Below are positions 2,152-60,000 of a stretch of DNA of 64,000 bases, piece by piece (positions within the stretch are counted from its first letter, which is position 1; every line of letters starts with the position of its first letter). The stretch is taken from positions 5,287,038-5,351,037 of the forward strand of contig CAJINV010000005.1 of NCBI GenBank assembly GCA_905178155.1, in the 5' to 3' direction. The notes beneath the pieces were generated by a model that was given only the letters and a program-made list of their open reading frames with translations, made no database searches and was not told where the DNA came from. The position numbers and the translations under genes were made by a program. The stretch comes from Amoebophrya sp. A120. Taxonomy: Eukaryota; Protista; Dinoflagellata.

Positions 2152-2806
2152 AGTCCAACAGGAGGGTGAAGTTTTCATCTTGTAAACCTCATCTTTTACT
2201 AGAGAAACAGCAAGTGCAGCATGCATTTTTCCTGTATATTAGTACAAGCCTTGAAGATTATAAATATCTGTACGCCAGGTGCTGGCGCGCATGATGAATC
2301 GGAGCCGGAGGTACGTCTAAATGCGTAGCGTTCGTTTCAAATGTATTTTTTTACAGCGGCATACTTTGCCTATTGCTATTCATTGTTGAGAGTTTATTTT
2401 ACTGCACGTTTATCATAAATTTTATTTTGTTTACATTTTGCATTTTTTGCATATAGATATACTTACATTATTTTTTGGACGTACAACAAGCCTTTGGGCA
2501 AATTTTAATTTTTATTTTACACACGCAGAAGTCGAACACGTCAGTGTTGTAGTGCTAAGAAACAAGAACTGACGCCTGGTGAGTCATAGGCTTTCTCCTT
2601 GAACTTGATAAGACTCGCTTACATTTTTAATATCTTCGTTTTCATATAATATCACTGCGACTGCCCCCCTCCAGCTCCACAGCGAAAGAAGAAGAAAACT
2701 CGAACTACCCAGACGAGCAAAATGAAACAAGACTGTGAGCAAAACCAATCCCCAAGATACTTCTAGGAAGGTTTTTTCATACTTTGACCATAATATGACT
2801 TAGTAT

Positions 2807-4789
2807 TGCGCCGCACCTAGTAGAGTTCTTGCTCGCATCATGCGGTACTAGGGGCGGAACCACTTTGATGGAGGAGGTTGTTCACAAAGACTAAGACATG
2901 AAAAGGTGGGACCGAGAAGATTGGTAGACTACATCGGTTTTAGATACCTTACCAGTTTGCGTTTATTCCAAGAACACCAGAATGTTGAGCGACTTTATGC
3001 TAGTACGAGGAAGAGGGACACAACCTACCACAAAGAAAGCACTCGAGCGACGAAGTTGCCCACTGATGATCTTCGGTGAGTTTGGTGTTGCTTGTAATTC
3101 CTAGTAATGCTATTCGGGCGAACCCGAGCTCGAGCCTTGACAGTGACACCGTACAAGCTGATTGCGCATTCTGTCGACAATTTTGTCATCCAGGAAACAA
3201 GCTGCTAGAAGAAGGCCTCCCTATTAGAGTAGTTGGAGATCGGGAAGAGCAAGGCTATGGGCAAAGAGCAATATTTTCAAAGATCGGGAAGAGCAATATT
3301 TTCAAACTTCCCTTTGGGATTTTAGTTTTCAATATACATAGAGAAGCTTCCTCTCTTCCCACTAGACGTGAGGCAGTTCTTGGTTTGGTGAGAACGTAAG
3401 ATTTATACCTACCCTCGACTGTTCATCTGGTAGCCAAAATTTTAGAAAGGCAACCTCACTACAACTAGGACTAGTGTTATTGATTCTTTAGGCGTTTACG
3501 TCGATATGTTCTTGTCTGTACAATATTCGTGTTGACGGAACAAAAGTAAAAATAGCATTTTGATTGCAATATTTTCTGCCTCAACACTAATGAGACAGTG
3601 ACAGACGCACGAGCAAGGTTTGTGTCGTCTGTTGTGTAGCTTGCATTGTTTTTTTATACATTTTTTTCCAAGTAGGACCATCTACATTTGGTCAGACACC
3701 GGCGCTATTTGGTCTACATCGTGGAACTATGCCTTACTCCTAAGTCTACACCTACCCGATCTTAAGTATTTACTTGTGCGTAATTTGCATCAGAAGTTCT
3801 TGAAGTTGTCCATTTCATTCTAATCCCTTTCAGGCTCCATTCATTCCTCAACATGGCCTGCGTCCTCCCTCTCTTTACATGGCCTGCGTTTACTACTGCG
3901 CCGCACCTAGTAGAGTTCTTGCTCGCAAGCGGTAGGAGCGAAGCCACTTTGATGGAGGAGCTTGTTCGCAAAGATATGAAACGGTGGGACCGAGACCACA
4001 ATTGCTAGACTACATCGGTTTCAGATACCTACTAGTCCAAGAACAGCAGAACGAGCGACTTTATAATGCTACGAGGAAATAAACGAGGGACACAACCACA
4101 AACGAAGCACTCGAGCGACAAAGTTGCCCACAACTGATGATCGGTGAGTTTAGTGTTGCAGTTGCTTGTAATTCCTAATAATGGATGCTATTAGGGCGAA
4201 CTCGAGCCTTGACAGTGACAGCGTAGTACAAGCTGATTGTGCATTCTGTCGACAATTTTGTCATGCAGGAAACAAGGTGCTAGAAAAGCAAAAGAAGAAG
4301 GTCTCCCTATTAGAGTAGTTGGAGATCGGAAACTACAAAACTATACATAGAGAAGATTCCTCTCTTCACACTAGACGTGAGGCAGTTCTTGGTTTGGTGA
4401 AAACGTAAGATTTATACCTACCCTCGATTCTCTGTAGCCAAAATTTTAGAAAGGCAACCCCACTAGCATTAAGTATTGAAATTGATTTTTTAGGCGTTTA
4501 CGTCGATGTCTGTTCTTGTCTGTACAGTATTCGTGTTGGCGGAGCATCAAAATAGCATCTTGGTTCTGCCTCAAAGGTAATGAGACAGACGCACGAGCAA
4601 GGTTAGCGTCGTCTGTTGTGTAGCTTCCATTGTTTTTTTTTCATTTTTTTCCAAGTAGGACCATCTACATTTGGTCAGACATCGGCGCTTTTTGGTCTAC
4701 AACCTAGAAGTTCTTGAAGGTGTCCACTTCTATCCTTTTTGGCTCTGACATTCATTCCTCATCAACATGGCCTGCGTCCTCCCTCTCTT
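2807..4789 (+). repeat. Diverged tandem duplication of about 1 kb (2807-3875 vs 3897-4789) covering the upstream region and first codons of the DoxX-like gene
   Basis: Both copies start TGCGCCGCACCTAGTAGAGTTCTTGCTCGCA and end ATGGCCTGCGTCCTCCCTCTCTT; long colinear matches with indels in between. Confidence 0.9.
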
Positions 4790-14260: not shown

Positions 14261-17200
14261 ATGGCGAAACAGGGACAACAAGGCGACCCGATCGACGGTG
14301 CGAACCCCAACAGGGAAATTCCGATCACCGATGCAAACGCTGCTTTGCTCGGAGGGGACAACATCAAAGGAGGTGCCGCACCCGCAGGCGGCTCTGCGCC
14401 CAGTCCACCTGTCGACAACGGGCAGCAATCTACTTCCGTCATGACCAATACAACCGAGGGACCACTGACCTTTGATCAAGTTGTATCGCAGGAAAAAAAT
14501 GTCTTTTCTATGCTGATGACGGTTTTATTTTTGCACAATGTTAATGTCTATGTGCTGCATGAGATGATGCGCACTCATCTGCTCTCTACATCGTTCTTTC
14601 ATCTACTTCTGCCTCTGCTGCAAAAATACAAGTCGCCGACCTTCCTCTCAAAAGTTAAACATTTTTTTTTCTGCGATAAGCCGCGTTAAAGCAGCAGTAC
14701 GACCGGGAAATGAAGGCGGATGTGGACAAGCACCACATTGAGGTCATCGAGCGAGATCTGCCTAGCTACAAGATCAACAACGGTGTGAACGAGGGGAAAA
14801 CTGGATTTCCCTTCGAAAAGGACCACGAATTCCCGGGCGGTAAGATGAAAAATTTATGACCAACATCGACAACTTTGGATTGATTGATGTGTTTGTGGCA
14901 CCAGGACCAGACGAGGACGAGATGGCCATGGTGTTTAGGTGTTCCGGCATGACAAAGATCATTAGCGAATGTCTTTTGGCATGACAAAGACTGTCAATCT
15001 CTACAACTGGCCAGGTTTCTACGTGGACACGGTAATCCGCACCGAGAAGGACCGGTGGACGATTTACAAGGGGCACTATCAAATGCAAATATGTCTGGGT
15101 CCTCTGGAAACTTGTGATGCTGGTGGTGGAGAGAGACGAGGACACTTCGATTGACTGCAAAGCATGACAAGTTTTGAAGGAGCTGCAGTGCTGTCTAAAT
15201 TCCATGACAAAGTGAGCTCCTGCATGACAGAAAAGTGGGGCTACTTTTGGGGATACACGTGCATGACAGACTTGAGAGTCACGCTCGCGAAGCATGACAA
15301 ACCTTGCATCTTCGTTCCAGACCTCCCAGACATATTTGCAGGTGATAGGCACGTTTTCGGAACTACGGACTACTGGGACTTATGTGTGGTTTACGTGCAG
15401 AGGGTGGATCCGAATTTTGTCGGCTCCATGCCCAAAGTGGTATACTTACAATGAACTGGTGCGGTTCATAATCTAATTTGCTTTACTTGGATGTTGTAAA
15501 GCGCTACTGGATGATGGATGTTGAAGATGTTCATGATAGCATGTTGTGTACTAGTCCGTCGATGCTAAAGTGCAGTGGTAAGGAGCAAGGCTGCAACAAC
15601 TTGGGCGGTCCCCATTGATTTGTTCAGGATTGCTATCCAAGAAAAAAAGTGTGTAAGTGTAACCTTTTTGCAGTAACAGCATTACAGATTTGTTTTGCAT
15701 GACAGAGAAAACCTGTCATGCGTAGCTAGTACGCGAAAACACGTATGAAAATAGCCTCTGATGCACATCCAGCATGAAAAATGTAACTGTATTGCAACGT
15801 CTGCAACACAATAAAGCTGCACTTACGCTGCAGTTTTTTTCTTGCATAATTGCGGCTTTCTCCGACCCGTGGTCAGCCGGGAACTGGTGCAAAATCCGTC
15901 CGATGTTTACCCCAACGAAGCCCCCTACTGCGTCCTGCTCTCCGAGAAGGAAGACACGTGGTACCAGGGCAAGCAGTACCGGTTATCAAGAAGGAAAATC
16001 CTCCCTCGTCCGCCCCATATCAAAACGGAAATCTGTGATGCAGATTTGTGGCCACAAATCAGCTTTGTCATGCTAGAAAGGAGAGAAAAGATGTGCAGAA
16101 AGTGCTTCCTCGCCCACCCCCCGGGGAGGGGATCCTTGACCTGTGGCGCTGGGAGCGGGTGTCCACTACGTGATGATGATGATGATGATGACTGCAGTGC
16201 TGTGCGGCGTGAGAAGGCCTCGCTCCATGTTGAGCATGACAGGAGGCAGCTGGAAGTGGGAAACAGCGTGACAAATTGTCTGCAAACGAGGCCACGACTG
16301 CCGCTTTTGGCCTTCTAGCAATACAACTCGATTTGTGTACTCATGTACCGCATGACAAATTTCGTTTTCGATATGGGGAGGGGGGATTTTTCCTTTTGAT
16401 GCCGGTATTCCGCATGGCAGTTTTTCCAACGCGTTCCGAAGTTCCAGCCGTCCTTTCGCCCGCGGGAAACTTTCGAATCCGGACAATTGCCGGGCGTGTA
16501 TAATTGTTTCTGATAGAAGTGCTGATGTACTTTCGACGTCTTACTTTTACGAACACATTCTTGCTACCGAACAAGTTGTGATGTCCCATCATGTTGATAC
16601 GACCATGTTGTGGATGTGGTTTCAGTTTCTGGGAAGTAGGAATAGCTTTGATGCCATGCAAGATTTTTTCAGCATGATTTGATGCACGACGTACAAAAAA
16701 TACAACGACTGGTCGATGTTGATAATGTTAAAAACACGACAGGAAATACCGTTTTGAGAAGTTCCTCGGGCGGGGCACGTACGGCGAGGCCTACCTCGGT
16801 ATTCGGCTAACGGACAATCGCCCCGTGGTGATCAAGGTTCTGTCGGCAAACCCCAAAACCTCCGCGCACACCGATATCCACCGGAGAAAAAGTTTCCTGG
16901 TTGTGCAACTACTCTTTTTGCAACAAGCAGAGCATGGTCATCTCCAAATTCTGGTTGCAGGATTCGGATTGCATTTTCACCACAGATGCTGCGATCATGC
17001 CATCCTAGTGCTCGTCCGTACCCTGTGCAGTCGCATGTAGCTGCTGCACCAGGTTTGTGTTTGTCACAGAGACTGAGAGAGTAGAGATGTGTATATTAAT
17101 GCACTTTTATTTGTTTTCTAAATCGAAGTACGCCAGCTTGAGACTTTTGTAGAGCATAGCCGACAAGGGCCCGCAGGTGGTGTTCGACAAGCCAAAACAA

Positions 17201-27400: not shown

Positions 27401-30400
27401 AAAACGAAAAATACAACGACCCGGAGGACTACACGGACTACGTGTTCTACAAACGCGTCATCGAGCGGATCCCGCTCTACCAGGCACGGTGCCTGCTGGC
27501 TTTCAAGCACTTCGAGTCGCTTCGCTTGGCCAAGGAGGTCGCGATGGGCAGTCGGGGCAAGATATCCTGTGTAAAAACGTCCCCAGCCCAGAGTTGTCAT
27601 GCAAATGTGCAATGACAGGAACAGTTGTAATGCGCAGTTCCATGAGACGAGGCATTTCCAATCGTGTTTTGGAATTTGTAATGTTGTAAACAGGTTGAGA
27701 GTGTGGCTTTCTCATGCGGCTTCCCTTGCCAACCAGCACTACACTGCAGAGGGAAAGAACTTGTCATGCACAGCTCCCAAAGCTTGGAGATTTGTGTTGC
27801 TAGATTCCCAACTTGACGTATGTGGCCGGGACGTTTTTGCTTAGGATACAAGATCGCGGTGCGCCAGTCGCAAGGGATCATCGACGACAGCAAGTATGAG
27901 GCAAAACATATCAAAAGGAAAAATCCCCCCTCCCCATATCAAAGCGAAGTTTCTGATGCTGGATTTGCGTACACAAATCAGATTTGTCTTGCTAGAGAAG
28001 ACTTCTGCAGGTCTATGCTGAGCCTGAATAGAAGGTTTTGGCCTAGGCGCTGAGCATGGCAAACGTCTGGTCTGTAGGGCCAACAGCATCACAAACTGCT
28101 TGCAGAATCCGGCGGAGCCTGTGGAGTTGCGTTCTTGCAAGACAGAGACGATTTGCGTTTGCGAGTCAGCATTACAAATCGTGCCTTTTCTATATGGGGA
28201 GGGGGGATTTTTCCTTACGATAAAACAGGAGCTGAACACCTACGGGGGAGACAATATTTGGGGAAACCGGCGGGAGATTATCACGGAAATATGACAGTGC
28301 ACAACTCCCTGCCCCCTCATTTGTATAGCATGAACGGCAATACAAGCATCAGCAAGAGTGCCAGTCTTGCATGACAAATTTGCACTGGATTATAGTGCTA
28401 TTTCAGCTACCAAAATTTGTCATGCACGCAGTGCCAAGAGGCAAAGGGTAGTAAATTGGGTACTTTGCATGACAAACGAGGGGGAGGGGGAGTTGTGCAC
28501 GGTCATAGGAAACACTAGACGACGTGAAGGGCCTCGGGGTGAACATCGGGGGCAAGTCTGATATCTCCGAAGTCGCGCAAAATATCCCACGAAAAAACTG
28601 TTTCACTGTGAACTTGTGATGCATGGAATGGAACACAAAACTATTTGTCTTGCTGCACATGCATAGAGCATTGGAGTTTCAAGTGTGTTTTTCCCTATGG
28701 GAACTGTGCGCATGGCAAATTTTCTGTGCCATGTGTAACAAACTACTTGTGATGCAGATCTTGCAAAATCATCACAGTGAAACAGTTTTTCCCTGCGATA
28801 CAAAACGCAGCAAAAGCAGTCGCGGCCTCGAAAAACGCGGGAGGGGCGGGGGCGAAAGATGTACTTTTAGACTTACTTTATAAAATTTGGATAGGATAGC
28901 TTAGCTGCAGCTTGGTTGATGATCATCTTTTTTCCTCGGTTGTAAATGCAAGACATTCGTCATTCGTTCTCGTTTCATTAAGTGTAGTGAGCATAGCGAA
29001 TGCTTAGTTGTGTTGCTCATTTCCCTAACTTTCGCCACCTCGGTTGTAGTACATCGATCTTGTGTCAAATTAGGTTCTTCTTGAATGAAGTCCGATACTA
29101 AACCTTATCAACAGCCCAACGCCAAGGGTCCGCAGCGCAGCACGGTGATGACGCGCGACATGAAAGCGGATATCAAAACCGAGGCTGCGAAAGACCAATT
29201 TGAAATGGACGACGACGACAAGGCCTACAGTTCCGACGACGAGGAGGCCAAACCCTACAAGACCCGGTATGGCGTTCTCAAGCGTTACATTCTCAATTGC
29301 GACACGATTTGTCATGCAAAATGAGCATCAACATCCACACAGTGAAGATGGTTTGACAACTTTGAGCATCAACTGGTCGATGGTTTGACAGCTGTGGTCT
29401 GTGCACTTGCCCTGTTCGCCCGTGCCGCAGGTAAGGCACAAACGGCCCAGCCTCCCCTGTCCGGGCGGGGTTGCGGTTTAGGGGAGAGTCTCGCCCCTTA
29501 ACCCAAAGGGGTACGTCGTCTCTTCCGTGAGAACAAAAACGTAAGGCGTAAAATGGGTCGGGTCCTGGATCGTTCTGTATGTTGGGCTGTCGCGCTCGGC
29601 TAGCTGGCCGGGCTGTACTGATCAGGTGTGGTGGGTAGCTCCCGACTGGTTGGCACTTTTCAAGGGGCGACTTGCCGTGGTAGCGCTCGGCTTTTGTATG
29701 ATGAGGTCGCCGAAAGTGCTTCCTCGTCCATCCCCCCGGGGAGGGGATCCTTGACCTGTGGCGCTGGGAGCGGGTGTCCACTACATGATGATGATGAAGA
29801 GGCTACTTCGCATGACAAATGTTGGAAAGGCTAAACAGCACCTAAATCTTATCTGCGCGGAGTTTCTAATGCTACAGGTGCAACCTCCATTCTTTGTCTC
29901 TTGCCATTTTTGCATTAGAAATTTATGTAACAGTTGAGAATGTAACGTTTGAGAACTCCATACCCGGCGCAAGCAGTACTTCTGTCCCGAGCCGCGACAG
30001 ATTTATGCTGAGTAAAACCGTCCCCACCCCAGGGTCGTCATGCAAATCTGCATGCCAAAAAAGTTTCTCATGCGGAGCCCCATGAGAAGCATTTTCTAGT
30101 CGTGTTATGGAGTTTGTGGTGCTAGAATCAGCATGATATGCTAGAGCTGTGATGCTGCTGAACTAGCGAAACAGGATCACACTATGACGGCAAACTTGTC
30201 ATGCGAAACAGCGAAAGCTGGGTGATTTGTCTAGCAGATTTCCCATCTTGACTCTGGTGCGGGGACGTTTTTAAACAGGATAAGATGGACGACGGTTTTA
30301 CGATGGACGGCCGCACCGGGGAGGAGGGCATGGAGGACAACGGTGGCGGCGCCGCGGGCAGTTCCCCCATGAAGATTTCGCCCGAGTCACCTGACCCCGA

Positions 30401-39134: not shown

Positions 39135-42100
39135 ATGGACCCGGAAATTCGATCTCGTCTCCGGAATGGCGCGGTCGCCTGCCGTTTCCGCGACCCGGGG
39201 TTACCCCTCTGCATCGACGGGTTTGTGCAGTGCAAACACCTATGCATTGCAAAAGTATCGTAGTACTAGTATAAATTGCATTACAAACTGACTTAGCATA
39301 TACAAATTGAATTTGTAATGCGGATCTGCCTTTCAGAAAAAGATTTGTAATGCATAAACGCGATTAAGTAGTACGAGTGCGATACTTTTGCACTGCAGAA
39401 CACCGGAAACTGAAGTTCACGGCGAACGAGCGGTTTGCGTACGGCGGCCGTGACATCGGCGGCGCCTCCGCTTTCTCGACGAACAGCTATGGCGCATCCA
39501 GTTCGACGACGAAGATGGAAGCGGGCCTATCCTGTGCAAAAGTATCGTACTCGTACTGCAATCAAAATCATGCATTACAAGTTTTTTCGTTAAGGTAAAT
39601 CAGCATTACAAATTCTATTTCTCATGCTGAGCGAACAATTTGTCATGCATTTATACGAGTGCGATACTTTTGCAGTTCATAGGGCCTGTCGCAGCTGTTG
39701 CCGCCGACCACCTGCATGTACCAAGACCGACACGGCGACAAGAACCAGATGCCGAATATCAAATGTAAAAATGTCTGGGTCTGGAAAGTTGGAACTTGTG
39801 ATGCTAGCTTTGGAGTCTAAAAAAATCTGTATTGCATGACCAGCAAGAGGAGCCACATTTGGGCTACGCGAGGAGGGCATTTGTCATGCGGAAATGGCAT
39901 CAGGAAGCTTTCCAAAAATCTGTGATGCTGGGTCATGCATTACAAGCATCATGGGTCATGCCAGACAAGCATGACAACCCTTCCGTTCTTCCAGACCCAG
40001 ACATTTTTGCATTTGATACCGAACCCCGGTGTACCAGACGACATTTCTGACGTCGATGGAAGCTCGGACCGTCTGAACTACGGGATTCTGCTGTACTATC
40101 GGGCGAGGGAATTGCAACTGGTACAAGCAAGTAGCGTGGGAGGACAAAACGGTAGTACAAGCACTGCCCGCGCGGACAATACCATGTATCCGATTGAATT
40201 CTATGTCGAGTCCGAGCAGCTTCGGCGGCAGATCCTCGAGGTGATAACCGACCGGCAGACGAATCCGAACCCCAGGCCGCTGTCCACGCAGCTGTACGAA
40301 AGTCTGTTCGCATCGTCAGCACCAGCGAACAGCTATCCTGTGCAAAAGTTGTACTCCTGCGCAGATGGGACGGACTTGCAGTTCTCGTGCAACACTGCAT
40401 GATGACAAAAAACTTATCAATTTTAATTTATTCTCTGCAGCCTCATTTTGCATTCACAAGCTGGTGGATTTGAATGAGATTGAGAATAACAAAATCATTT
40501 AGATACCATTGTAAACATATTAACTCATGCTACTTACTTATACTTATGTTTGTACATGTTCTTCATCTTCTACGACACGCACGAAACTTTTGCCGACCTT
40601 CATAACACCTCCGCCTCTACGGCCTATGACCCCGGCCGGGAAACGGATCAGATCAAACTGCATTCCAATTACCAATACGGTGGCTCCTCCGCCTCCAGTA
40701 CGCGCAGTACCCCTGGGGGCCGGCTATCCGGAACCAGGAGCAACCACGGGCGGGCGGCCGGCACGGCGAGCGTGATGCTGGAGCGAAGCCGGAATTTGAT
40801 GGCCAAGTTCTGTTTGGCACAGAACGATATCCATTGCAAAAGTATTGTACTCGTAGTAATCGCAGTCATGCAATACAAATTTCCATCTCAAGGTAAAACA
40901 GCATTTTTACAAATTCCATTTGTCATGCTGAGCTAATAATGCGATTACTACTAGCACGATACTTTTGCAATGCATAAACGACGGTGGAGGTCCCGGAGCA
41001 GGCGGGCGGAGGCAGGCGAGATCGGAAAACGGATTTAACGGCCGCGGAGGCGCGGGAAAGAACACCAGAAACAGTAGAACGAGCAAACTGTTTCGCAGCA
41101 CGTTCGGAGGAAAGAGATTGACCCGAAGCAGCTTCGAAAGTAACGAAGGCGCGGGGTCTATCCTGTAGAAAAACTACGTCCCCACCCCAGAGTTGTAATG
41201 CAAATCTGCATGCCTCAAATGTTCCTCATGCGCATGATCCGCCTGAAAAGCTGCACTTTCTAATCGTGTTTTGGAATTTGTCATGCTAGAACCAGGATAA
41301 GAGTGCCCATTTCTGATGCGTCTGCGCGAGCTGAACACTATAAGTACACGGCAAGCCCAAACTTGTCATGCGAGAATGCTAAAAGTTCTCGATTTGTGTT
41401 GCAAAGTTGCCATCTTGACTCGGGTGGGGACGTTTTTCCTCAGGATAGGGTCCCTAAACGTCCGATCCGATTTGGAAATTTTGCAAAATTATCTGCTATC
41501 AAATGCAAATATGTCTGGGGCTGGAAGATTGCTACGTTTGTCATGCATGTCTGACATGACTCAAGAATCTGTGATGCATGAGCACGAAGCGACCCTCTTG
41601 CCTGTCGTGCAAAAACGCAGCTTGCCATGCGGAACACGCAACACATAGGAGCCCAAAAATTTGTCATGTTTGGCTCGGTATTTTTGCAGTGGAACTCTCA
41701 TTCACTTTTAGCATGATATACAAGTTTCCAGACCCAGACTACACATTTGCAATGCATACCTCCGCCACGACTGCGAAACGGCCTTGAGCAAGCTTGTTGA
41801 GAAGAGTTATCAAATGTAAAAATGTCTGGGTCTGGAAGATTGCCAGGTTTGTCATGCACGTTTTGCATGACGTGTGAGGTCTGTGATGCATGCCTTAGCA
41901 TCACAGATTCTGTGAGATCTTTACCATGCCTTTTCCGCATGAGAAACTGCCTCTAAAAGTGAACAGCTTTATTGGTAATCATGCAACACAGATTTTTGTA
42001 TGATTCAGATTTAGCATGACAAGTTGTACTCTTCCAGACCCAGACACTTTTACACTTGATAAGAGTAAGGGCAACACCAGCAGCACCGCTACTACAACTT

Positions 42101-45100
42101 TATCTCACGTCAAACTCGGCACAAAAACTACTTTCCAGAGATACGAGGCTCTGGTGGAGAATATCATCAGCGAGTATTCCGATTTGGGGCATCTAGAAAC
42201 CTTTTTCGAGGTGAATTACCCGAGCGGCATGCGGGAAGAACAATTTGGGTGGTTTTTAGTGCAAATGCAGGACGAGAATTCCCTGGTCGCGAAGGAGGTC
42301 TTTTCCTTCCTGAAACCGCCCTGGAAAACGAGTAACTCATCCAGCATTGCGTCGAACAGTAGTTCTGGTGCGACGTCGGCGCACCAGCAATACCAGTCGC
42401 AGAACACCACTTCGAGCAGTAATATGTTGGACCAGCTCCACATGTCGAGTTTTGACCAAACCGCGAATGCTCTGAACAAGTTCGGCCTCCGGCGCTGGTT
42501 GTGCGATGCGAGCCGGAATTGCATCTGTAGTGGGCATATGAATTGCAAAAGTAAATTGTACTCGTATAAACGCATTACAAATGTCCTCAGGTTGACAAAT
42601 ATAATTTGTAATGCGGATTTAGCTTGACAAAGAAATTTGCAATGCATGATTGCAATTGCTACGAGTGCGATACTTTTGCACAGCATAGGGCACGAGAATG
42701 GCGGTTCTGGTGCGACGAGTCTGAATCTTGGGGAAGATAGCTTCATCGAGGACCATATCTTGTGCACAAGTATCGTACTCGTACTGCAGTCATGCATCAC
42801 AAATCTTTTTCTTGAGGTAGATCCGCATTACAAATTATATTTTTCATGCTGAGGAAATTTGTGATGCATTTATACGAGTGCGATACTTTTGCAGTTCATA
42901 GACCATGTGGATCACAGCTTGATCGAAGTCGACGAGCGAACCCTCGATTACCCGTTCGCCAGCTACCTGGTGGCGTCGACCGGGTTTTATTGCGGCGGCA
43001 ATCGTAATTCTGCTTCAACATCATCACTGGGCAAGAACGACCCCGGACGAGCAGATGTACATCAACTTCTAGAGGAGAAGTTTCTGAATGACTTCCTCCC
43101 ACTAATAGCCAACAAGTATCGGTGCCTTTCGTTTCTGGTTTGCGCAGATGGAAGTGACAGTAGTACAACCGGCGATCATGAAGCAGGAGCAGGCGGAGAG
43201 CCAGTAGCTGCGGAACTACCTTCTTCAGCGATGAAAAACAAAACCCTAGATGATCATGCTGGCTACTCCGTGCACATTTCGCCGACTCTGAAAATCTCGA
43301 TACTAGCGATCCTTGGAAAGTTGGCACAAGTGGAAGAGAAGCAGGACCGGGGCCGAAACAAGTTCCCCCTGACTGTAGTGCTGCTGAATGGGGTTAATCA
43401 TAGTAGTCAACATTTGCTGGCAAGAACTTCTAGAAACACCAGTCCAGCACCCGCCTCTCTAGCAGCCTATCTAGAGAAGATGAGCTTACCTTCGCCAGTG
43501 TTTCGGGTGATGCACTCGGCTGGATCTGCTGCGCCGGCATCATCTTCAGCTTCTTCTGGACAACAGCAACGAAGTAAGAACTACCTCGTTCCCGATATCA
43601 AATGTGAAAATGTCTGGGTCTGGAAGATTGATGCCAGGCTTGTCATGCATATTTTGCATGATTCGTGATGCCTGTAATGCATGACCTAGCATCACAGATT
43701 TTTAAAGAGCCTTCTGATGCGTATTCCGCATGAGAAACGCCCGCTCCGCGTAGCACGAATTGAACTCCTCTTGCTGGTGATGCAATACAGATTTTTTTTA
43801 CCTTTCAAAGACAGCATCACAAGTTCCAACCCTTCCAGACCCAGACACTTTTGCAATCCATACCAGAGACCCCCATGCAACTACTCCGAACAGGCACGAA
43901 GATTGCGATCGAGATAAAGGTATGCAGTGTAAAAGTATGGTATTGGTAGTGATTGCAATACAAATTCGCTCAGGTTTGCTTTGGCAACGAGATTTGTAAT
44001 GCATAAATGCAATTCCTACGAGTACGATATTACTTTTGCACAGGATAAGCAGAAGGTGCTTGCCCGAGCTTTCCCGCCGCCTGGAAGAATTGTAGGCCGC
44101 CACCAGAAGTAAACGTAGAGTCCTCGTCTGAGGCCGCGCAGGACGTCGGGGGTGCAGCGGGTGGAGGTCAACATCTTCGTGCTGGGTCAACATCTAGTAG
44201 GGCGCATGATCTTGCAGGCAGCGGTGGAGGAGGTGCAGGCGCCAACGAGGAGGAGGAGGTGAGGCATTTCTTCGCGCCGATTGTCCTCCGGAGTGGGAAT
44301 GGAAACGACCCATCGGAAGACTTTTACGATGACAGTGAGGATGGAGACGGGTTCTCTTCTGATGATTTAAATTTTCCGGAGGACAAAATGCACCACTACC
44401 ACTGGCCGTGTTTGCAGCTTCACGGAGAAGGTTGTAATGGTGCTGCAGGAGACGCAAATAGAATTATTCCGGCTTCCGTCGACGTGTGCAATTTGTGGGC
44501 GAGTGGGATACAGAGAGTCTGCTGTCCACCCCCAACAGGCGTGTTTTCAACATCAATCAACACGTTGACCAAGAACTACATCAATCCACCTAAACCAGAA
44601 CACATCCTATCAAATGCAAATATGTCTGCGTCTGGAAGGCTGAGAGACTTGTCATGCAGGTTTTCCATTATGTGTGGGGTCAGTCATACATGACCCAGCA
44701 CGACAGAAGATTCTGTCCGACGACTTCTATCATGCTTCGTCTGCGTGAGAAACTCCCTCTCAGCTTGGTCAAAAGTGGACAGCTTCTGGTAATCATGCAA
44801 CACAGACTTTTGCACTATCCAAGATTAGCATGACAAGTTGCAACCCTCCAGACCCAGACACATTTGCAATGCATACATCCTGTTCGAAAACAACGGGTTT
44901 CAACTTCAGGACCTCCCTATCCTGTGCAAAAGTATCGTACTCGTAGTCGTATTGCAATCATGCACTACGAACCAATCCTTTTGCTGAGGTAAATCCGCAT
45001 TACAAATTTTATTTCTCATGCTGAGGAAATTTGTAATGCATTTATACGAGTGCGATACTTTATTTGCAGTTCATACTCGCACAACTCCGCCCCTGGCACG

Positions 45101-46708
45101 TTTGCATCCGCCCGCTTTTGTTGGAAAGAGCCTTCTGTGTCGGGGAAAAATTGCCGGGGGCGCAAATGCAAAATCAAGCGTCGGCTGACGATGGATTTCG
45201 AGACGTGCTTCGCAGCATCACAGACGATACAACTACAGTAGGTGTTGGAGGTGACTCTGCATCCACATCCACATCCAGCGGGGGCGCAAATGATAACAGC
45301 TGTTATAATAGTGCGTCTTCTCATTCGTTCACTACTGGTACTGCGGCAAGTAGAACTTTGACTTCTTCCCCCACTTCTATCGACAAAAGACAAGTCTTTT
45401 TCACCGCTAAACTGGAATCTTTCGCACGTAAGCGCGGCCCAAGTTACTTCGGGAAAATGGAGTTTGAAACGAGCGCGAATTTGTTTCAAGCCGACGTCAA
45501 CATCTCGGCGATTCGAAAGGATGTTGAGATGATAAACCAGGCTGGAACTACTGCTTCTGTGGCAACGCCTGCCACAGCGGCCAGTGGGCAGTATACCAAC
45601 ACTTCCAGCGCGACGGGGGGTGCGTCCACAAATTCTGCGAATCAACATACGGGTCGTACTTCTAGCAGTGCAACGTCTTCCAGAACGGCTTCTAGAGCAG
45701 CCGGACCCGGAGGTCAGCATATGTATTGCAAAAGCATCGTACTGGTAGAAATGACATCACAAATTCGTTCAGCATGGCAAATGGAATCTGTCATGCTGTT
45801 TTCCCTTGGGATGGAAGTTTGTAATGCATGATTGCGATTACTACGAGTACGATACTTTTGCACAGGATACAGCAACGTAGGCCGCAATTTGTGCAGGCGA
45901 GACACCCCAACGGGCAGCAACAGAGCAAATATCAAATGCAAATATGTCTGGGTCTGGAAACTTGTGATGCTGGGTGGCGTATCATGAGGAGGCCACAAGT
46001 GCTGGCTCAGCATGACAAGTTTCTGAGCTTCTAGGTGTTGCCTATTCTGCATGACAAACTGTGTTTCATCTGCATGAGCATGACAAGAAAATGGGTCTCT
46101 TGGGTAATGTGCATGACAGATGTAAGAGTCATGCGAAACAAGCATGACAAACTTGCACTTTTCCAGACCCAGACATATTTGCATTTGATAGCAAAAGCAA
46201 CTTTACAAATGACGAGTGGCTGAATTCGGAGCTACTCCAGCAAATTCGGTTTAAGTGTCCGCACCCGGAGTCGGGTTTGCTAACTCTGAAGCTGAACCAC
46301 GTAGATGCCGTCACGCGAAAAATCTCGACGGTCTATCAAATGCAAAAATGTCTGGGTCTGGAACAAAGCAACTTGTCATGCTAAATCTGAATCATGTAAA
46401 AATCTGTGTTGCATGATTACCAAAAGCTGTCCACTTTTGACCTAATCGAAAGGCAATGTCTCACGCAGGATAGGCATGATAGAACTGTCACAGAATCTGT
46501 CATGCTATGACCTACATACCAGACCCCATGGGTCATGGAAAACCTGCATGACAAGTCTGGCACTCTTCCAGACCCAGACACTTTTGCAGTTGATACGGTC
46601 AGTCACTACGCAATGCGACTCTTGCACTTGCGACCAGGGCTGCGCTGGGTGCCGTTTGCGGGAAATCGGGAGTTTCGGGGGATGCTGGTGCATGTGGAAT
46701 TTTTGTAA
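39135..46708 (+). CDS. Divergent phosphoinositide phospholipase C-like protein (PH/EF/X/Y/C2 order), probably non-catalytic; about 17 introners
   Basis: The frame stayed continuous across the junctions checked. X-box-like TLDYPFASYLVAST; Y-box-like RIIPASVDVCNLWASGIQRV and LFENNG; C2-like ending LLTLKLNHVD..SHYAMRLLHLRPGLRWVPF. Assignment is from remembered motifs only. Confidence 0.6.
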
Positions 46709-46726
46709 ATACTGGAGTGGAATGGT

Positions 46727-49163
46727 ATTTGGCATGAACAACTTGTTCATCGCTTTCGCTTCCTGTCTTTGCAAATCTGCATTACAACTCTGGCGTGGGT
46801 ACGTTTTTACACAGGATATGCACCCAATTGAATTCTATGTCGAGTCCGAGCAGCTTCGGCGGCAAATCCTCGAGGTGATAACCGACCGGCAGACGAATCC
46901 AAATCCCAGGCCGCTGTCCACGCAGCTCTACGAAAGTCTGTTCGCATCGTCAGCACCAGCGAACAGCTCCGCCTCTACGGCTTATGGAGACCCAGGCCGG
47001 GAAACGGATCAGATCAAACTGAATTCCAATTACCAATACGGTGGCTCCTCCGCCTCCAGTACGCGCAGTACCCCCGGGGGCCGGCTATCCGGAACCAGGA
47101 GCAACCACGGGCGGGCGGCCGGCACGGCGAGCGTGATGCTGGAGCGAAGCCGGAATTTGATGGCCAAGTTCTGTTTGGCACAGAACGACGCCGGTGGAGG
47201 TCCCGGAGCGGACGGGCGGAGGCAGGCGAGATCGGAAAACGGTTTCAACGGCCGCGGAGGCGGTGGATATCGCAAGAAAAAACTGTTTCACTGTGAACTT
47301 GTGATGCATAGAATGGAACACAGAACTATTTGTCTTGCTACACCTGCAAGACCTTGACTCTCTAGGGGTGTTTTTCCGTTGGAAGCGCGCATGGCAAATT
47401 TTCTGTGTCATGTGCAACAAACTTGTGATGCAGATCTTGCAAAATCATCACAGTGAAACAGTTTTGTCGTGGGATAGTGGAAACACCAGAAACAGTCGAA
47501 CGAGCAAACTGTTTCGCAGCACGTTCGGAGGAAAGCGATTGACCCGGAACAGCTTCGAAAGTAACGAAGGCGCGGGGGCACCCAACGTCCGATCCGATTT
47601 GGAAATTTTGCAAAATTACCTGCGCCACGACTGCGAAACGGCCTTGAGCAAGCTTGTGGAGAAGAGTAAGGGCAACACCAGCAGCAACACCGCTAGTACA
47701 ACTTCATTTCACGTCAAGCTCGGCACAAAAACTACTTTCCAGAGGTACGAGGCTCTGGTCGAGAGTATCGTCAGCGAGTATTCCGATTTGGGACATCTAG
47801 AAACCTTTTTCGAAGTGAATTACCCGAATGGCATGCGGGAAGAACAATTTGGGTGTATCAAATGTAAAAATGTCTGGGTCTGGAAGATTGCCAGGTTTGT
47901 CATGCACATTTTGCATGACTCCTGATGTCTGTGATGCATACCCTAGCATAACAGATTTTGTGAGGGCTTCCTGATGCCTATACCGCATGACAAATGCTCT
48001 TTCCGTGTAGCAAAACTTGGACTCTCTTTGCTGCTCATGCAATACAGATTTTTTTAGAGTCCGAAATCAGCATGACAAGTTTGATTCTTCCAGACCCAGG
48101 CATTTTTACAGTTGATAGGGTGGTTTTTGGTGCAAATGCAGGACGAGAATTCCCTGGTCGCGAAGGTATCAACTGTGAAAATGTCTGGGTCTGGAAGAAT
48201 TCATGTTTGTCATGCTTGTCAGGCATGACTCTTAAATCTGTCATGCACGTTACCCAAGAGCTCCGTTTTTCTGTGATGCAGAAGCGCAGTTTGTCATGCA
48301 GAATAGGCAACACCTAGGAGCTCAGAAACTTGTCATGCTGAGCCAGCAGCTGTAGCCTCATCATGAGACGCTACCCAGCATCACAAGTTCCCAGACCCAG
48401 ACACTTTTACTTTTGATAGAAGGAGGTCTTTTCCTTCCTCAAACCGCCCTGGAAAACGAGTTGTAACGCAGCCAGCATTGCGTCGAACAGTAGTTTTGGT
48501 GCGACGTCGGCGCACCAGCAATACCAGTCGCAGAACACTGCGACCAGTAGTATGTTGGACCAGCTCCACATGTCGAGTTTTGACCAAATATGACAGTGCA
48601 CAACTCGTCCCCCTCCCCCCTCATTTGTAATGCAAAATACGAAGTTCACATCTTGCCCTCAAGCACAGTCTGCGTCACAAATTTTGGAGCTTCATCAAAC
48701 AGTACTACAATCCATGTGCAGACTTGTCATGCGGAAGTCACATTTCTGGCGTTGCTTGTATTGCTGTTCATGCCAACATTCGAATGAGGGGGAGGGGGAG
48801 TTCTTGTGCACTTTCATACCAAACTGCGAACGCTCTGAACAAGTTCGGCCTCCGCCGGTGGTTGTGCGATGCGAGCCGAAATTGCATCTGTAGCGGGCAC
48901 GAGAACAATGGCGGTTCTGGTGCGACGAGTCTTAATCTTGGAGAAGACAGCTTCATCGAGGACCATGTGGACCACAGCCTGATTGAAGTCGACGAGCGAA
49001 CCCTCGATTACCCGTTCGCCAGTATGCTGTGCAAAAATGTTTGTCCCCACCGCCCCACAGTCAAGATGGCAAATCTGCAACACAAATGTCCAAGTTTTGG
49101 GAGTTCTGCATGACAAGTTTCCATCGCATTTGGCATGAACAACTTGTTCATCGCTTTCGCTTC
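46727..49163 (+). repeat. 36-bp direct repeat (46727-46762 and 49128-49163) flanking the duplicate
   Basis: ATTTGGCATGAACAACTTGTTCATCGCTTTCGCTTC occurs at both sites. Confidence 0.9.
46819..49022 (+). pseudogene. Partial duplicate of PLC-like exons (homologous to 40184-42962) with its own distinct introners
   Basis: High nucleotide identity to the upstream gene's exons; lacks both the N- and C-terminal coding parts; bounded by half-introners and a 36-bp direct repeat. Confidence 0.85.
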
Positions 49164-57000: not shown

Positions 57001-60000
57001 GACCAGCGGCAAAACCAAAACCTCCAGCGGGATACAACGTCGAGTGCAGACCTCAATGTATCCCACGAAAAAACTGTTTCACTGTGATGATTTTGCAAGA
57101 ATCGCATCACAAGTTGTTTGTGACACATGAGGACACAGAAAATGTGTCAGGCGCGTTTTTCCCATAGGGAAAAACACGGTTGGAACTCCAATGCTCTATG
57201 CAGGTGTAGCAAGACAAATCGCTCTGCGCTCCATTTTCTGCATCACAAGTTCACAGTGAAAGAGTTTTTTCTTGCGATACAATGCCGCGCAGATGTATTC
57301 GGTTTTTTCCCCGGGCACCGGCGGTTTATCCTACGTAAAAACGTCCCCACACCATAGTCAAGATGGGAAATCTGCAACATAAATCTCCAAGTTTTGGAAG
57401 TTCTGCATGACAAGTTTCCATCTGCAGTGTAGTGCTGGTTAGCCAGGAAAGCCGCATGAGAAAGCCATTTACTCATTCTGTTTACAGCATTACAAATTCC
57501 AAAACACGACTGGAAACGCCTCTCAAGGAGATGCGCGCTACAAATGTTCCTGTCATTGCACATTTGCATGACAACTCTGGGGTCCGCCTGCGCCTTCGGT
57601 GTCCGCCTGACCTACCCCCCCTGCGTGTCAAGCCATCTGCGGCCTGGGGCAGAGGGGGGGGGGCAAAGTGTGCTGCAATTCCTTTAGCATGACAACTCTG
57701 GGGTGGGGTCGTTTTTACACAGGATACGGCTTTCACCGGAGTTACTCGGCTTTCAACAAAAACCAGAAGGACTACGTCCAGGGAGCGGATGGGCAATACT
57801 ATCCGCAAAACAACTACATGGGAGGTGGTGGGGATGATGCCGGATCTTCATGGGGAGCCGGGTACCAGCATCCCCAGGGGAATTACAACGCGAACTGGTA
57901 TGGAGGGACCACGAACAGCAGCTACAACCAATACGGGAATCCAAATCAGCCGGGGCTGCACAACAAGGGTTACGGGAAACACCAGCAACAAGGTAAAAAC
58001 TACCCTGCGAGCAACCAGCTCGCAGTACCACCGTCGGCGGCGACCAAGCCACGCGCTTCCTCCTCGAGTTCAGCGACGACAGCGCAGCTGACGAACAAGC
58101 AGCTCTCCCACGGGACCGCGGACACACCCACAAGGCGGAGAAAACACCACGCACCGAAGCTGTCAAAAGCGAAAAAGCTGGAGCGGCTGGCTACGCATTG
58201 CAAAGCAAGTATCGTACTAGTAGTAATCGCATTACAAATTTGCCCGGCATGAGAAATGAAATCTGCCATGCTGTTTTGCCCTGGGACGTAGATTTGTAAT
58301 GCATGCTTGCGATAATTACTACCTACGAGTGCGATACTTTTGCACAGGATACTAGCGCACGTGGCGTGGCACGCAGAGGCGACGAGTATGGGGTGGCTAG
58401 ATGAGGACACCATGATATGAATTGCAAATGTGTCTGGGTCTCCTGGAAGCTGGTAACTTGTCATGGTAAATCTGAAGCATACAAAAATCTGTGTTGCATG
58501 ACTGCCAAAAGCAGCTCTTCACTTTCGACCAAGGTGGGAGGGAGTTTGTTCTCATGTAGGATAGGCATGATAGGGATCTCGTCACAGAATGTCTGTCATG
58601 CTAGGTCCCGCATCCCAGACCTCATGGGTCATGGAAAACCTGCATGACAAGTTTACGCTCTTCCAGACGACCCAGACATAATTTTTGCATTTGATACATG
58701 AAATTCGTGAAGCACGACGCGTTTCACGGCAGGTTATCGGCGCTAAGCGAAAATATGAACTGCAAAAGTATCGTACTCGTATAAATGCAAGTCTTGCATC
58801 ACAAATCTTGTTCCCAAGGCAAATCAGCATTACAAATTTCATTTCTCATGCTGAGGAAACTTGTGATGCATTTATACGAGTACGATACTTTTGCACAGCA
58901 TAGAAAATCACGTGCGGCAACATGGGGTATATATGCAAGAAAAAAACTGTGTAAGTGTAACTCTGTAATGCAGAACATGCAACAGAGCTACACCTGTCAT
59001 GCCAGACAGCCATGAAGTCCTCTGCTCAAGTGTGTTTTCCCTTACAAGCCACGCATGACAGGTTTTCTCTGCCATGTAGAGCAAATTTGTGATGCTGTTT
59101 CTCAAAGAAAGTTACACTTACACACTTTTTTTCCTGGATAGTATAGGATTTTGCGACTACAACCTAACAAGGATTGTCATTCGGTTTTTTCGTTCTGTTC
59201 CTCGCCAAGGGATGAAGCGGAACGAAATACTTAAATAATACAAAGTGTAGAAGTCGTGTTTTATTTGAGCTCCTCAGTACTAGAACTTGTTCGTGATGAA
59301 GAAAACGTCTGCAATTTGAATTTTAGTCACAGTGACTGCATTAAGACAAAAGCAAGACTACTAGTACAGCACAAATTATGGATGTGTCAGGATCGAAATC
59401 GACAAAATCGAAAAACTTGTGATGCGTAAAATGTAGAGCACTGAAGGCCTGTCTTGGGGCGCAGGCATATGAGGCCGATTGTAAGCCTGTTTAGGGGTAT
59501 GCAATGTGCTGCCAGAGTAGCATGGCCGGAGCAGTCTTCTTTGTCCAAACAGCATGACAGACTGCATTTGGGTGCTCCCGAAATTTGTCATGCGCCACTT
59601 GAAGACTGAGGCTCCAACTGACATCGATTTTGTGCATCACAAATTTTTCGATTTTGTCAATTTCGATTCTGACGCTCCCATACAAATTCAAAAAATTGAA
59701 ATTGTATCAGGTCCACCGCTACTGCGTATGCTGTGCAAAAGTATCGTACTCGTATAAATGCAGGTCTTGCATTACAAATTTCTTTGTCAAGGCAAATCCG
59801 CATTACAAATTTTATTTCTCATGCTGAAAAAATTTGTAATGCATTTATACGAGTACGATACTTTTGCAGTTCATACTGCGTCTCATTTCACCAAGTGCAC
59901 CACAAAGCTTTGAGTAATGCGGACGGAATATGGATTGCAAAAATGTCTGGGTCTGGAAGATGTCATGCTGTTTTTGCATGACGCAGAAGGTCTGGAATGG

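What the first reader, a model, noticed from the sequence alone, without database searches (positions are those of the whole stretch)
40184..49022. Two copies of the same exons carry completely non-overlapping introner sets, giving 11 natural empty sites
Seen: the gene segment 40184-42962 has 7 introners (40334, 40828, 41159, 41497, 41808, 42537, 42756), all absent from the duplicate. The duplicate has 4 (47268, 47856, 48167, 48589), all absent from the gene. Empty sites generally hold one copy of the 5-mer, e.g. GAGAAGAGTAAGG, GAGGACCATGTGG, CGCGAAGGAGGTC; a few differ by exon substitutions. This shows the direct repeats are target-site duplications. Inference: either the invasion post-dates the split of two still highly similar copies, or one lineage passed through an intronless cDNA and was recolonised.
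Basis: partly seen in the sequence, partly recalled or inferred. Interest (0 to 1): 0.9.

Follow-up and report, generated by a model that had tools for sequence, protein, structure and literature searches.

The report
Gene copies with unshared jumping introns
In a marine parasite, a gene and a truncated copy beside it share none of their eleven transposon-like introns, which likely means these already-known introns jumped in separately, and recently, after the two copies diverged.

Summary
Observation confirmed. The window is Amoebophrya sp. A120 and the elements are its published TAT..ATA introners. The gene segment has 7 and the copy 4, at different sites (nearest pair 76 nt apart). Eight of 11 empty sites hold exactly one copy of the 5-mer; three differ by 1-2 bases. 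The repeat is exactly 5 bp, so it behaves as a target-site duplication. The exons diverged under purifying selection (dS 0.17, dN/dS 0.11), which rules out a dead retrocopy; two rough clocks put most introners at or after the split. This likely reflects a reinserted DNA circle. DNA contigs hold the copy at about 0.4-1.25 of single-copy depth; RNA-like contigs show it precisely spliced. Its right junction is supported by contigs; its left junction was seen in 0 of 4 runs. No parent gene was found, so the donor was a lost paralog or a divergent allele. Known elements, a useful natural experiment, one locus.

The parts
39135..46708 (+). Host gene, 1299 codons after precise removal of 17 introners; PI-phospholipase-C-like by a language-model lead only
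   Evidence: Open frame after excision; NCBI model P0002 covers its last 869 aa; Atlas feature score 0.93; no Pfam PLC or PDB hit
40184..42962 (+). Duplicated segment of the gene, residues 154-560
40334..40604 (.). Gene-only introner; decayed TIRs, AT-rich interior with no relative in the window; oldest candidate
   Evidence: one single-copy-depth DNA contig spans it in X1 and X2
40828..40976 (.). Gene-only introner, 150-nt family, exact 5-bp TSD
41159..41447 (.). Gene-only introner, 285-nt family, exact 5-bp TSD
41497..41758 (.). Gene-only introner, 262-nt family; each TSD copy differs by one base from the empty site
41808..42061 (.). Gene-only introner, 262-nt family, exact TSD
42537..42687 (.). 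Gene-only introner, 150-nt family, exact TSD
42756..42900 (.). Gene-only introner, 150-nt family, exact TSD
46727..46762 (+). First copy of the 36-bp direct repeat X, 18 nt behind the stop codon; last 4 nt are microhomologous to the introner interior
   Evidence: gene 3' end joins X in X2, X3, X5; exit to 46763 seen in 0 of 4 runs
46763..46818 (.). Last ~56-60 nt of a 285-nt-family introner (left boundary of the copy); not spliced out
   Evidence: high-copy 31-mers in DNA runs; retained in RNA-like contigs
46818..49022 (+). Truncated copy: 410 open codons, dS 0.17, dN/dS 0.11, precisely spliced
   Evidence: X3 contig of 1366 nt equals the span 46781-49119 minus four elements plus one TSD each; NCBI model P0001
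47268..47476 (.). Copy-only introner, 212-nt family, exact TSD
47856..48117 (.). Copy-only introner, 262-nt family, exact TSD
48167..48418 (.). Copy-only introner, 262-nt family; the only one of 21 with a possible GT-AG register
48589..48818 (.). Copy-only introner, two-member family in the window, exact TSD
49023..49127 (.). First ~100 nt of a 285-nt-family introner, same subfamily and orientation as the left half (right boundary); not spliced out
   Evidence: joined to X in contigs of X3 and X5
49128..49163 (+). Second copy of X, followed by single-copy flank

Best explanation
The gene and its neighbouring fragment carry unshared sets of TAT..ATA introners with 5-bp target duplications, most likely because two functional versions of the gene split first and were then invaded separately. 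Shown: distinct sites, single-copy empty sites, open frames under purifying selection, precise splicing of the copy's four elements. Inferred: a transposase or integrase makes a 5-nt staggered cut and inserts the element, and splicing removes the element plus one repeat, restoring the message. Inferred with less support: a piece of the second version was excised as a circle closed through a 285-nt-family introner (recombination between two such elements, or one element attacking a site 2.2 kb away), opened inside that element, and joined by microhomology behind the first version's stop codon with a 36-bp duplication. The donor was either a paralog since lost or a divergent allele met in a cross; the data do not separate these.
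For: dS 0.172 (0.12-0.23), dN/dS 0.114 (0.06-0.19), Fisher p 5e-16, no stop in 410 codons, five 3-nt gaps in the free DNA alignment and seven one-codon gaps in the codon alignment. 0 of 11 shared gives an upper 95% bound of 24% pre-split sites if none were lost. Clock 1: TSD copies differ at 21 of 365 positions (5.8%, 3.6-8.7), about 0.04 substitutions per site by my conversion, against 0.086 per lineage for the split. Clock 2: 6 of the 9 elements aligned have a neighbour in the window closer than the exons' silent distance of 0.154, among them 3 of 6 in the gene and 3 of 3 in the copy. Both boundary halves are one subfamily in one orientation and do not overlap; that subfamily is 4 of 88 catalogued elements, so about 2% by chance. 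DNA contigs: gene-only and flank at like depth (X1 36-49 and 47; X2 28-35 and 31); copy implied at 0.8-1.25 (X1) and 0.4-0.65 (X2) of single copy; an X1 contig bridges the empty site of 40828 and runs into the copy-only element 47268. X has two entries and single-copy flank behind it, so a second exit should exist, and the assembly supplies it. The paper states that the assembly was checked against Nanopore reads and cut at chimeric joins (PMC7789003 section 23).
Against: The left junction appears in 0 of 4 runs; an X5 contig instead has 37 nt of introner interior before 46759. Contig pruning next to 400-copy words can explain this but was not shown. The right-junction contigs carry only 30 letters of X, one under the tool's bar for bridging. 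X2 gives the copy only about half depth, on the assumption that its contig has the X1 layout. Both clocks are rough: the catalogue favours intact TSDs, and introners may evolve more slowly than silent sites. 41159 (0.26 to its nearest neighbour), 41497 (0.18), 41808 (0.16), 48589 (79% identity) and 40334 (unalignable) are not shown younger than the split, so some precise loss is possible. About 125-130 nt of the junction element are missing and no donor was found, so the circle is inferred from two ends only. No RNA contig was listed over the gene's seven elements; their splicing is inferred from the restored frame.
Confidence: 0.62

Rival explanations
1. The copy is real and the introners are post-split, but its place is an assembly error: it lies elsewhere, or behind a longer repeat, with a whole introner on its left.
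For: Left junction in 0 of 4 runs; X5 contig continues into introner interior; both ends fall in repeats, where contigs break; the assembly used gap filling.
Against: The copy's right end joins X, the gene's own 3' sequence, in X3 and X5; the half elements stay unspliced while four whole ones are removed; a seamless join on 4 nt of microhomology is not a usual assembler product (own knowledge); flank depth is single copy.
Confidence: 0.17
2. An old tandem paralog, invaded independently, was cut down in place by two separate deletions, each ending in a 285-nt-family introner; X is then homologous 3' UTR, not a target duplication.
For: Explains adjacency and shared introner families with no travel; the copy's elements have close relatives among resident ones (0.10-0.135).
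Against: Needs X to stay 36 of 36 identical (0.2-16% for 15-5% divergence), two independent breakpoints within 36 bp of each other, and both in one subfamily (about 2%).
Confidence: 0.1
3. One lineage passed through an intronless cDNA, or lost its introners precisely, and was recolonised.
For: TSD mismatches are 3 of 35 in the gene against 0 of 20 in the copy, the expected direction but p 0.29; 40334 looks older than the rest; cDNA recycling in dinoflagellates is recalled, not confirmed.
Against: dN/dS 0.11 limits any neutral phase to the last 23% (37% at the upper bound) of the copy's branch; no poly(A), no leader relic, ends inside the coding sequence at introner halves; three gene elements are themselves closer to neighbours than the exons' silent distance. 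The segment has no old canonical intron, so the direct test is not available.
Confidence: 0.07
4. The two versions are haplotypes of a mixed culture, laid in tandem by the assembler.
For: Both versions enter the same X and only one exit is seen; X2 depth for the copy is about half.
Against: Flank depth should equal gene plus copy (about 87 in X1, 47 in X2) but is 47 and 31; the gene's 5' and 3' exons lie on unbroken contigs with no other letters.
Confidence: 0.04

Closest known systems
Amoebophrya A120 introner elements (Farhat et al. 2021, PMC7789003)
   Same: Same strain, TAT-starting inverted repeats, 5-nt direct repeats, non-canonical precise splicing, 29,850 copies reported.
   Different: In the sections read, the paper shows no empty sites, says gain cannot be told from loss, and argues against general transposase mobilisation; this locus gives 11 empty sites and a time bound inside one genome.
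TIR DNA-transposon introners with TSDs (Gozashti et al. 2022 PMC9860276; 2025 PMC12130899)
   Same: Non-autonomous TIR elements with target duplications acting as introns; the 2025 paper attributes A120 introners partly to TIR DNA transposons; the 2022 paper uses an ortholog lacking the element as comparison in Aureococcus.
   Different: Here only 1 of 21 elements can use GT-AG in any register, and the comparison is between two versions in one genome.
IS3EU/GingerRoot DNA transposons (PMC10045372)
   Same: TA..TA termini.
   Different: Those usually make 6-bp TSDs; here 5 bp (0 of 73 at 6). No transposase is in hand, so this is a lead only.
Duplication through an extrachromosomal circle (Takahashi and Innan 2020, PMC7188851, abstract)
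   Same: A fragment circularised, cut elsewhere in the circle and reinserted, leaving a permuted order.
   Different: Here the permutation is seen only in the junction introner, the insert sits beside its homolog, and the donor is absent.

Membership tests
Amoebophrya A120 introner | Inverted repeat starting TAT, seven variable bases, then at least three A | tested here: met
   11 of 11 start TAT and end ATA; 8 of 11 have AAA at positions 11-13, three deviate (42756, 48167, 48589) (definition)
Amoebophrya A120 introner | Direct repeat of 3-5 nt at the boundaries | tested here: met
   5 nt; 9 of 11 exact, two with 1-2 mismatches
Amoebophrya A120 introner | Repeated in the genome | tested here: met
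   10 of 11 have relatives in the window; 40334 is a singleton
Amoebophrya A120 introner | Removed from RNA at non-canonical boundaries | tested here: met
   4 of 4 copy elements and 5 downstream gene elements are skipped precisely in X3 contigs; GT-AG possible for 1 of 21; the gene's seven were not covered by listed RNA contigs
Amoebophrya A120 introner | Host is strain A120 | tested here: met
   Exon translations match A120 proteins at 100%
Non-autonomous TIR DNA transposon (MITE) | TIRs and a fixed-length TSD, single at the empty site | tested here: met
Non-autonomous TIR DNA transposon (MITE) | Cognate autonomous element with matching ends | not testable with these tools
   No genome held
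IS3EU/GingerRoot | TA..TA termini | tested here: met
IS3EU/GingerRoot | TSD usually 6 bp | tested here: not met
   5 bp; 0 of 73 exact at 6
IS3EU/GingerRoot | Transposase of that clade | not testable with these tools
   No autonomous element in hand
Processed retrocopy | Lacks the parent's introns | tested here: inconclusive
   Lacks 7 but has 4 of its own and two boundary halves; no old intron in the segment
Processed retrocopy | Poly(A) tail, leader relic or transcript-like ends | tested here: not met
   Ends at residues 154 and 560, in introner halves; the leader motif searched was recalled
Processed retrocopy (dead on arrival) | Neutral decay since copying | tested here: not met
   dN/dS 0.11, open frame
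Circle-mediated duplication | Permuted junction sequence at the two ends | tested here: met
   Element end on the left, start on the right, same subfamily and orientation; about 125-130 nt missing
Circle-mediated duplication | Donor locus with the unpermuted order | tested here: inconclusive
   No second copy of the other exons in DNA contigs or protein clusters
PI-phospholipase C (host gene) | PI-PLC-X and PI-PLC-Y profile matches | tested here: not met
   No Pfam or PDB match; Atlas features 0.93 and TM 0.35-0.42 give a lead only

The most novel reading that the evidence does not exclude
The fragment is a captured piece of a divergent allele from a cross. Then two interbreeding Amoebophrya haplotypes, 15% apart at silent sites, share none of 11-13 intron positions in this gene, most of A120's ~30,000 non-canonical introners are not fixed in the species, and introners themselves cut out and move pieces of host genes as circles.
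Probability: 0.28. Interest if true: 0.8.

Novelty: new member of a known kind. Interest (0 to 1): 0.5.

Why it matters
The A120 genome paper could compare only strains too distant to tell intron gain from loss. This pair is close enough: it shows the pre-insertion state for 11 sites, fixes the duplication at 5 bp, and suggests that about 4-6 introners per kb of coding sequence can build up within dS of about 0.17. That predicts near-total presence/absence polymorphism among close strains, which resequencing can test. Whole elements are spliced in either orientation while half elements are not, which points to paired ends as the signal for the unexplained non-canonical splicing. It is one locus, and the elements and their transposon nature are already in print.

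Tried and rejected
Run search: no holder on record as RNA; X3 and X5 are treated as RNA because their contigs skip elements that DNA contigs retain. Contig depths in X3 and X5 rise towards the 3' end, as a read-through transcript would give, but contig depth cannot rank parts of a gene, so this is not used; nor is the lack of RNA cover over the gene's 5' exons. Metagenome scan with P0001: 60 pattern matches, 0 relatives. Protein searches found only the two A120 models, a partial A25 homolog and two distant unnamed homologs: no outgroup close enough to polarise sites. GT-AG splicing that adds a codon was considered and rejected: precise removal fits the contig lengths. Reversed-ends transposition (PMC3744419, search listing only; mechanism recalled) was rejected because the element ends remain attached to the copy. 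The C/T difference at 47075 is read as merging of gene and copy in the contigs. Earlier findings of this scan: none. Literature searches for empty-site or strain-polymorphism evidence in Amoebophrya listed none; supplement figures of PMC7789003 and the datasets of PMC12130899 were not seen and may bear on this.
Full report
Identity. Exon translations match proteins named Amoebophrya sp. A120 at 100%. The elements fit the published A120 introners: inverted repeats that start TAT, and short direct repeats (PMC7789003 section 11; its supplement legend shows 5-bp repeats). No whole genome was available.

The observation. Self-alignment shows 40184-42962 repeated at 46818-49022 in blocks broken by insertions. 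All 11 insertions are at the stated places, start TAT and end ATA. Their sites do not coincide; the nearest pair is 76 nt apart. Eight empty sites equal the upstream 5-mer exactly and three differ by one or two bases. Across 73 family-assigned elements of 88 catalogued, 56 have an exact 5-bp repeat, against 0 or 1 at other lengths and 0.18 in shuffled pairs; the catalogue required at least 3 of 5 matches. The repeats therefore behave as 5-bp target-site duplications.

Splicing. Removing each element plus one repeat gives an open 1299-codon gene and an open 410-codon copy. A 1366-nt contig of run X3 equals the span 46781-49119 minus exactly the copy's four elements and one repeat each, and other X3 contigs skip five downstream gene elements the same way. 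DNA contigs of X1 and X2 keep the elements. Only 1 of 21 elements allows GT-AG in any register. Members of the 262-nt family lying in opposite orientations are both skipped (45930 and 48167; 46334 and 47856), while the two half elements are kept. No listed RNA contig covers the gene's seven elements.

Age and selection. The copies differ at 44 silent and 18 replacement positions: dS 0.172 (0.12-0.23), dN/dS 0.114 (0.06-0.19), with only in-frame gaps (five 3-nt gaps in the free DNA alignment). Both lineages were thus functional for most of their history; a neutral phase can cover at most 23% of the copy's branch, 37% at the upper bound. With no loss, 0 of 11 shared sites bounds the pre-split share at 24%. 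TSD copies differ at 5.8% of positions, which I convert to about 0.04 substitutions per site, half the per-lineage split of 0.086 (conversion assumes one copy is neutral and one coding). Six of nine elements aligned have a window neighbour closer than the exons' silent distance, three in each copy. Against this, 41159, 41497, 41808 and 48589 are not shown younger, and 40334 has no alignable relative. Most sites are likely post-split gains; an occasional precise loss is not excluded.

The ends of the copy. The copy covers residues 154-560; a full-length homolog aligns at the first motif around its residue 93, so this start is internal. On the left it abuts the last 56-60 nt of a 285-nt-family introner and on the right the first ~100 nt of the same subfamily in the same orientation, with about 125-130 nt missing between them. 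Outside both lies an exact 36-bp repeat, X, found only at 46727 and 49128, 18 nt behind the gene's stop. The left join has 4 nt of microhomology with the family interior seen. That subfamily is 4 of 88 elements, so matching ends by chance is about 2%. The simplest single event is a circle closed through an introner, opened inside it and reinserted with a 36-bp duplication, as described for human duplications (PMC7188851, abstract). This step is inferred.

Is it real? Gene-only contigs and the flank have like depth (X1 36-49 and 47; X2 28-35 and 31). The copy is implied at 0.8-1.25 of single copy in X1 and 0.4-0.65 in X2. Alleles sharing the flank would raise flank depth to gene plus copy, which is not seen. 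The gene's 3' end enters X in X2, X3 and X5, and the copy's right half element enters X in X3 and X5, with 30 letters on the X side, one short of the tool's bar. The exit from X into the left half element is seen in 0 of 4 runs, and an X5 contig has introner interior there instead. Two single-copy entries and one single-copy exit imply a second exit, and contigs are pruned beside words of 18,000-fold depth, so the assembled join is plausible; the paper also reports a Nanopore check for chimeras (section 23). It remains unconfirmed.

The donor. The gene's other exons lie on unbroken single-copy contigs and each A120 model is alone in its cluster, so no full-length parent was found. Either a paralog was lost, or the donor was a divergent allele. 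The copy's introners belong to resident families and lie 0.10-0.135 from resident elements, so the donor shared a gene pool with A120. A preprint reports spores expressing meiotic genes in A120, with no zygote seen (10.1101/2025.04.10.648098, abstract and passages); another paper finds low or no gene flow between ribotypes (PMC7018713, passages), so any cross would be within one. I rate the two donors about equal.

Host gene. A language-model search points to PI-phospholipase C (score 0.93, TM 0.35-0.42); Pfam and PDB give nothing. This is a lead and does not affect the verdict.

Known and new. The elements, their direct repeats and their likeness to MITEs are published (PMC7789003: abstract, sections 10, 11, 12, 16, 23, passages and supplement text); a later survey assigns A120 introners partly to TIR DNA transposons (PMC12130899, passages; PMC9860276, passages). 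TA..TA ends recall IS3EU/GingerRoot, but those usually make 6-bp TSDs (PMC10045372, passages), so membership is not claimed. Searches and one search listed no report of empty sites or strain polymorphism for these elements. The locus adds direct empty sites, a time bound and a likely introner-mediated gene-fragment move. Verdict: real, largely explained, moderately interesting; interest 0.5.

Noticed in passing
window 1485-61150: Catalogued introners are never closer than 29 nt (0 of 74 gaps under 700 nt; 9.5 expected if random) and are in excess at 29-80 nt (29 against 13.9); three gaps in the finding are exactly 49 nt. The commonest family is 145-155 nt long, near a nucleosome core (recalled). 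Suggests a minimum exon size or chromatin-guided insertion (some elements were missed by the catalogue).
   Followed up: partly
window 40334-40604: Element with 150-family ends but an AT-rich interior unlike any other in the window and single-copy k-mers; candidate for an old intron or a captured fragment.
   Followed up: partly
window 45930, 46334, 47856, 48167: Same-family elements in opposite orientations are all spliced from + strand transcripts, while single-ended halves are not; fits a splicing signal that needs both ends.
   Followed up: partly
window 39135-42260 and 46720-49110: The public annotation misses the gene's first 430 codons (P0002 starts late) and calls the fragment a separate 472-aa gene that starts across the unconfirmed left junction and ends in the half introner.
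   Followed up: yes
window 43921-44047: Introner with a decayed TSD and a nearby AG; the annotated protein agrees with precise five-base excision.
   Followed up: partly
window 57327-57726: A 285-family element lengthened to 400 nt by an internal GC-rich insertion near its end.
   Followed up: no
window 2800-4789: Tandem repeat of 400-480-nt blocks at 77-85% identity with no long open frame.
   Followed up: partly
window 16095-16185 and 29709-29800: A 92-bp non-introner repeat at 95% identity, each followed by a GAT run.
   Followed up: no
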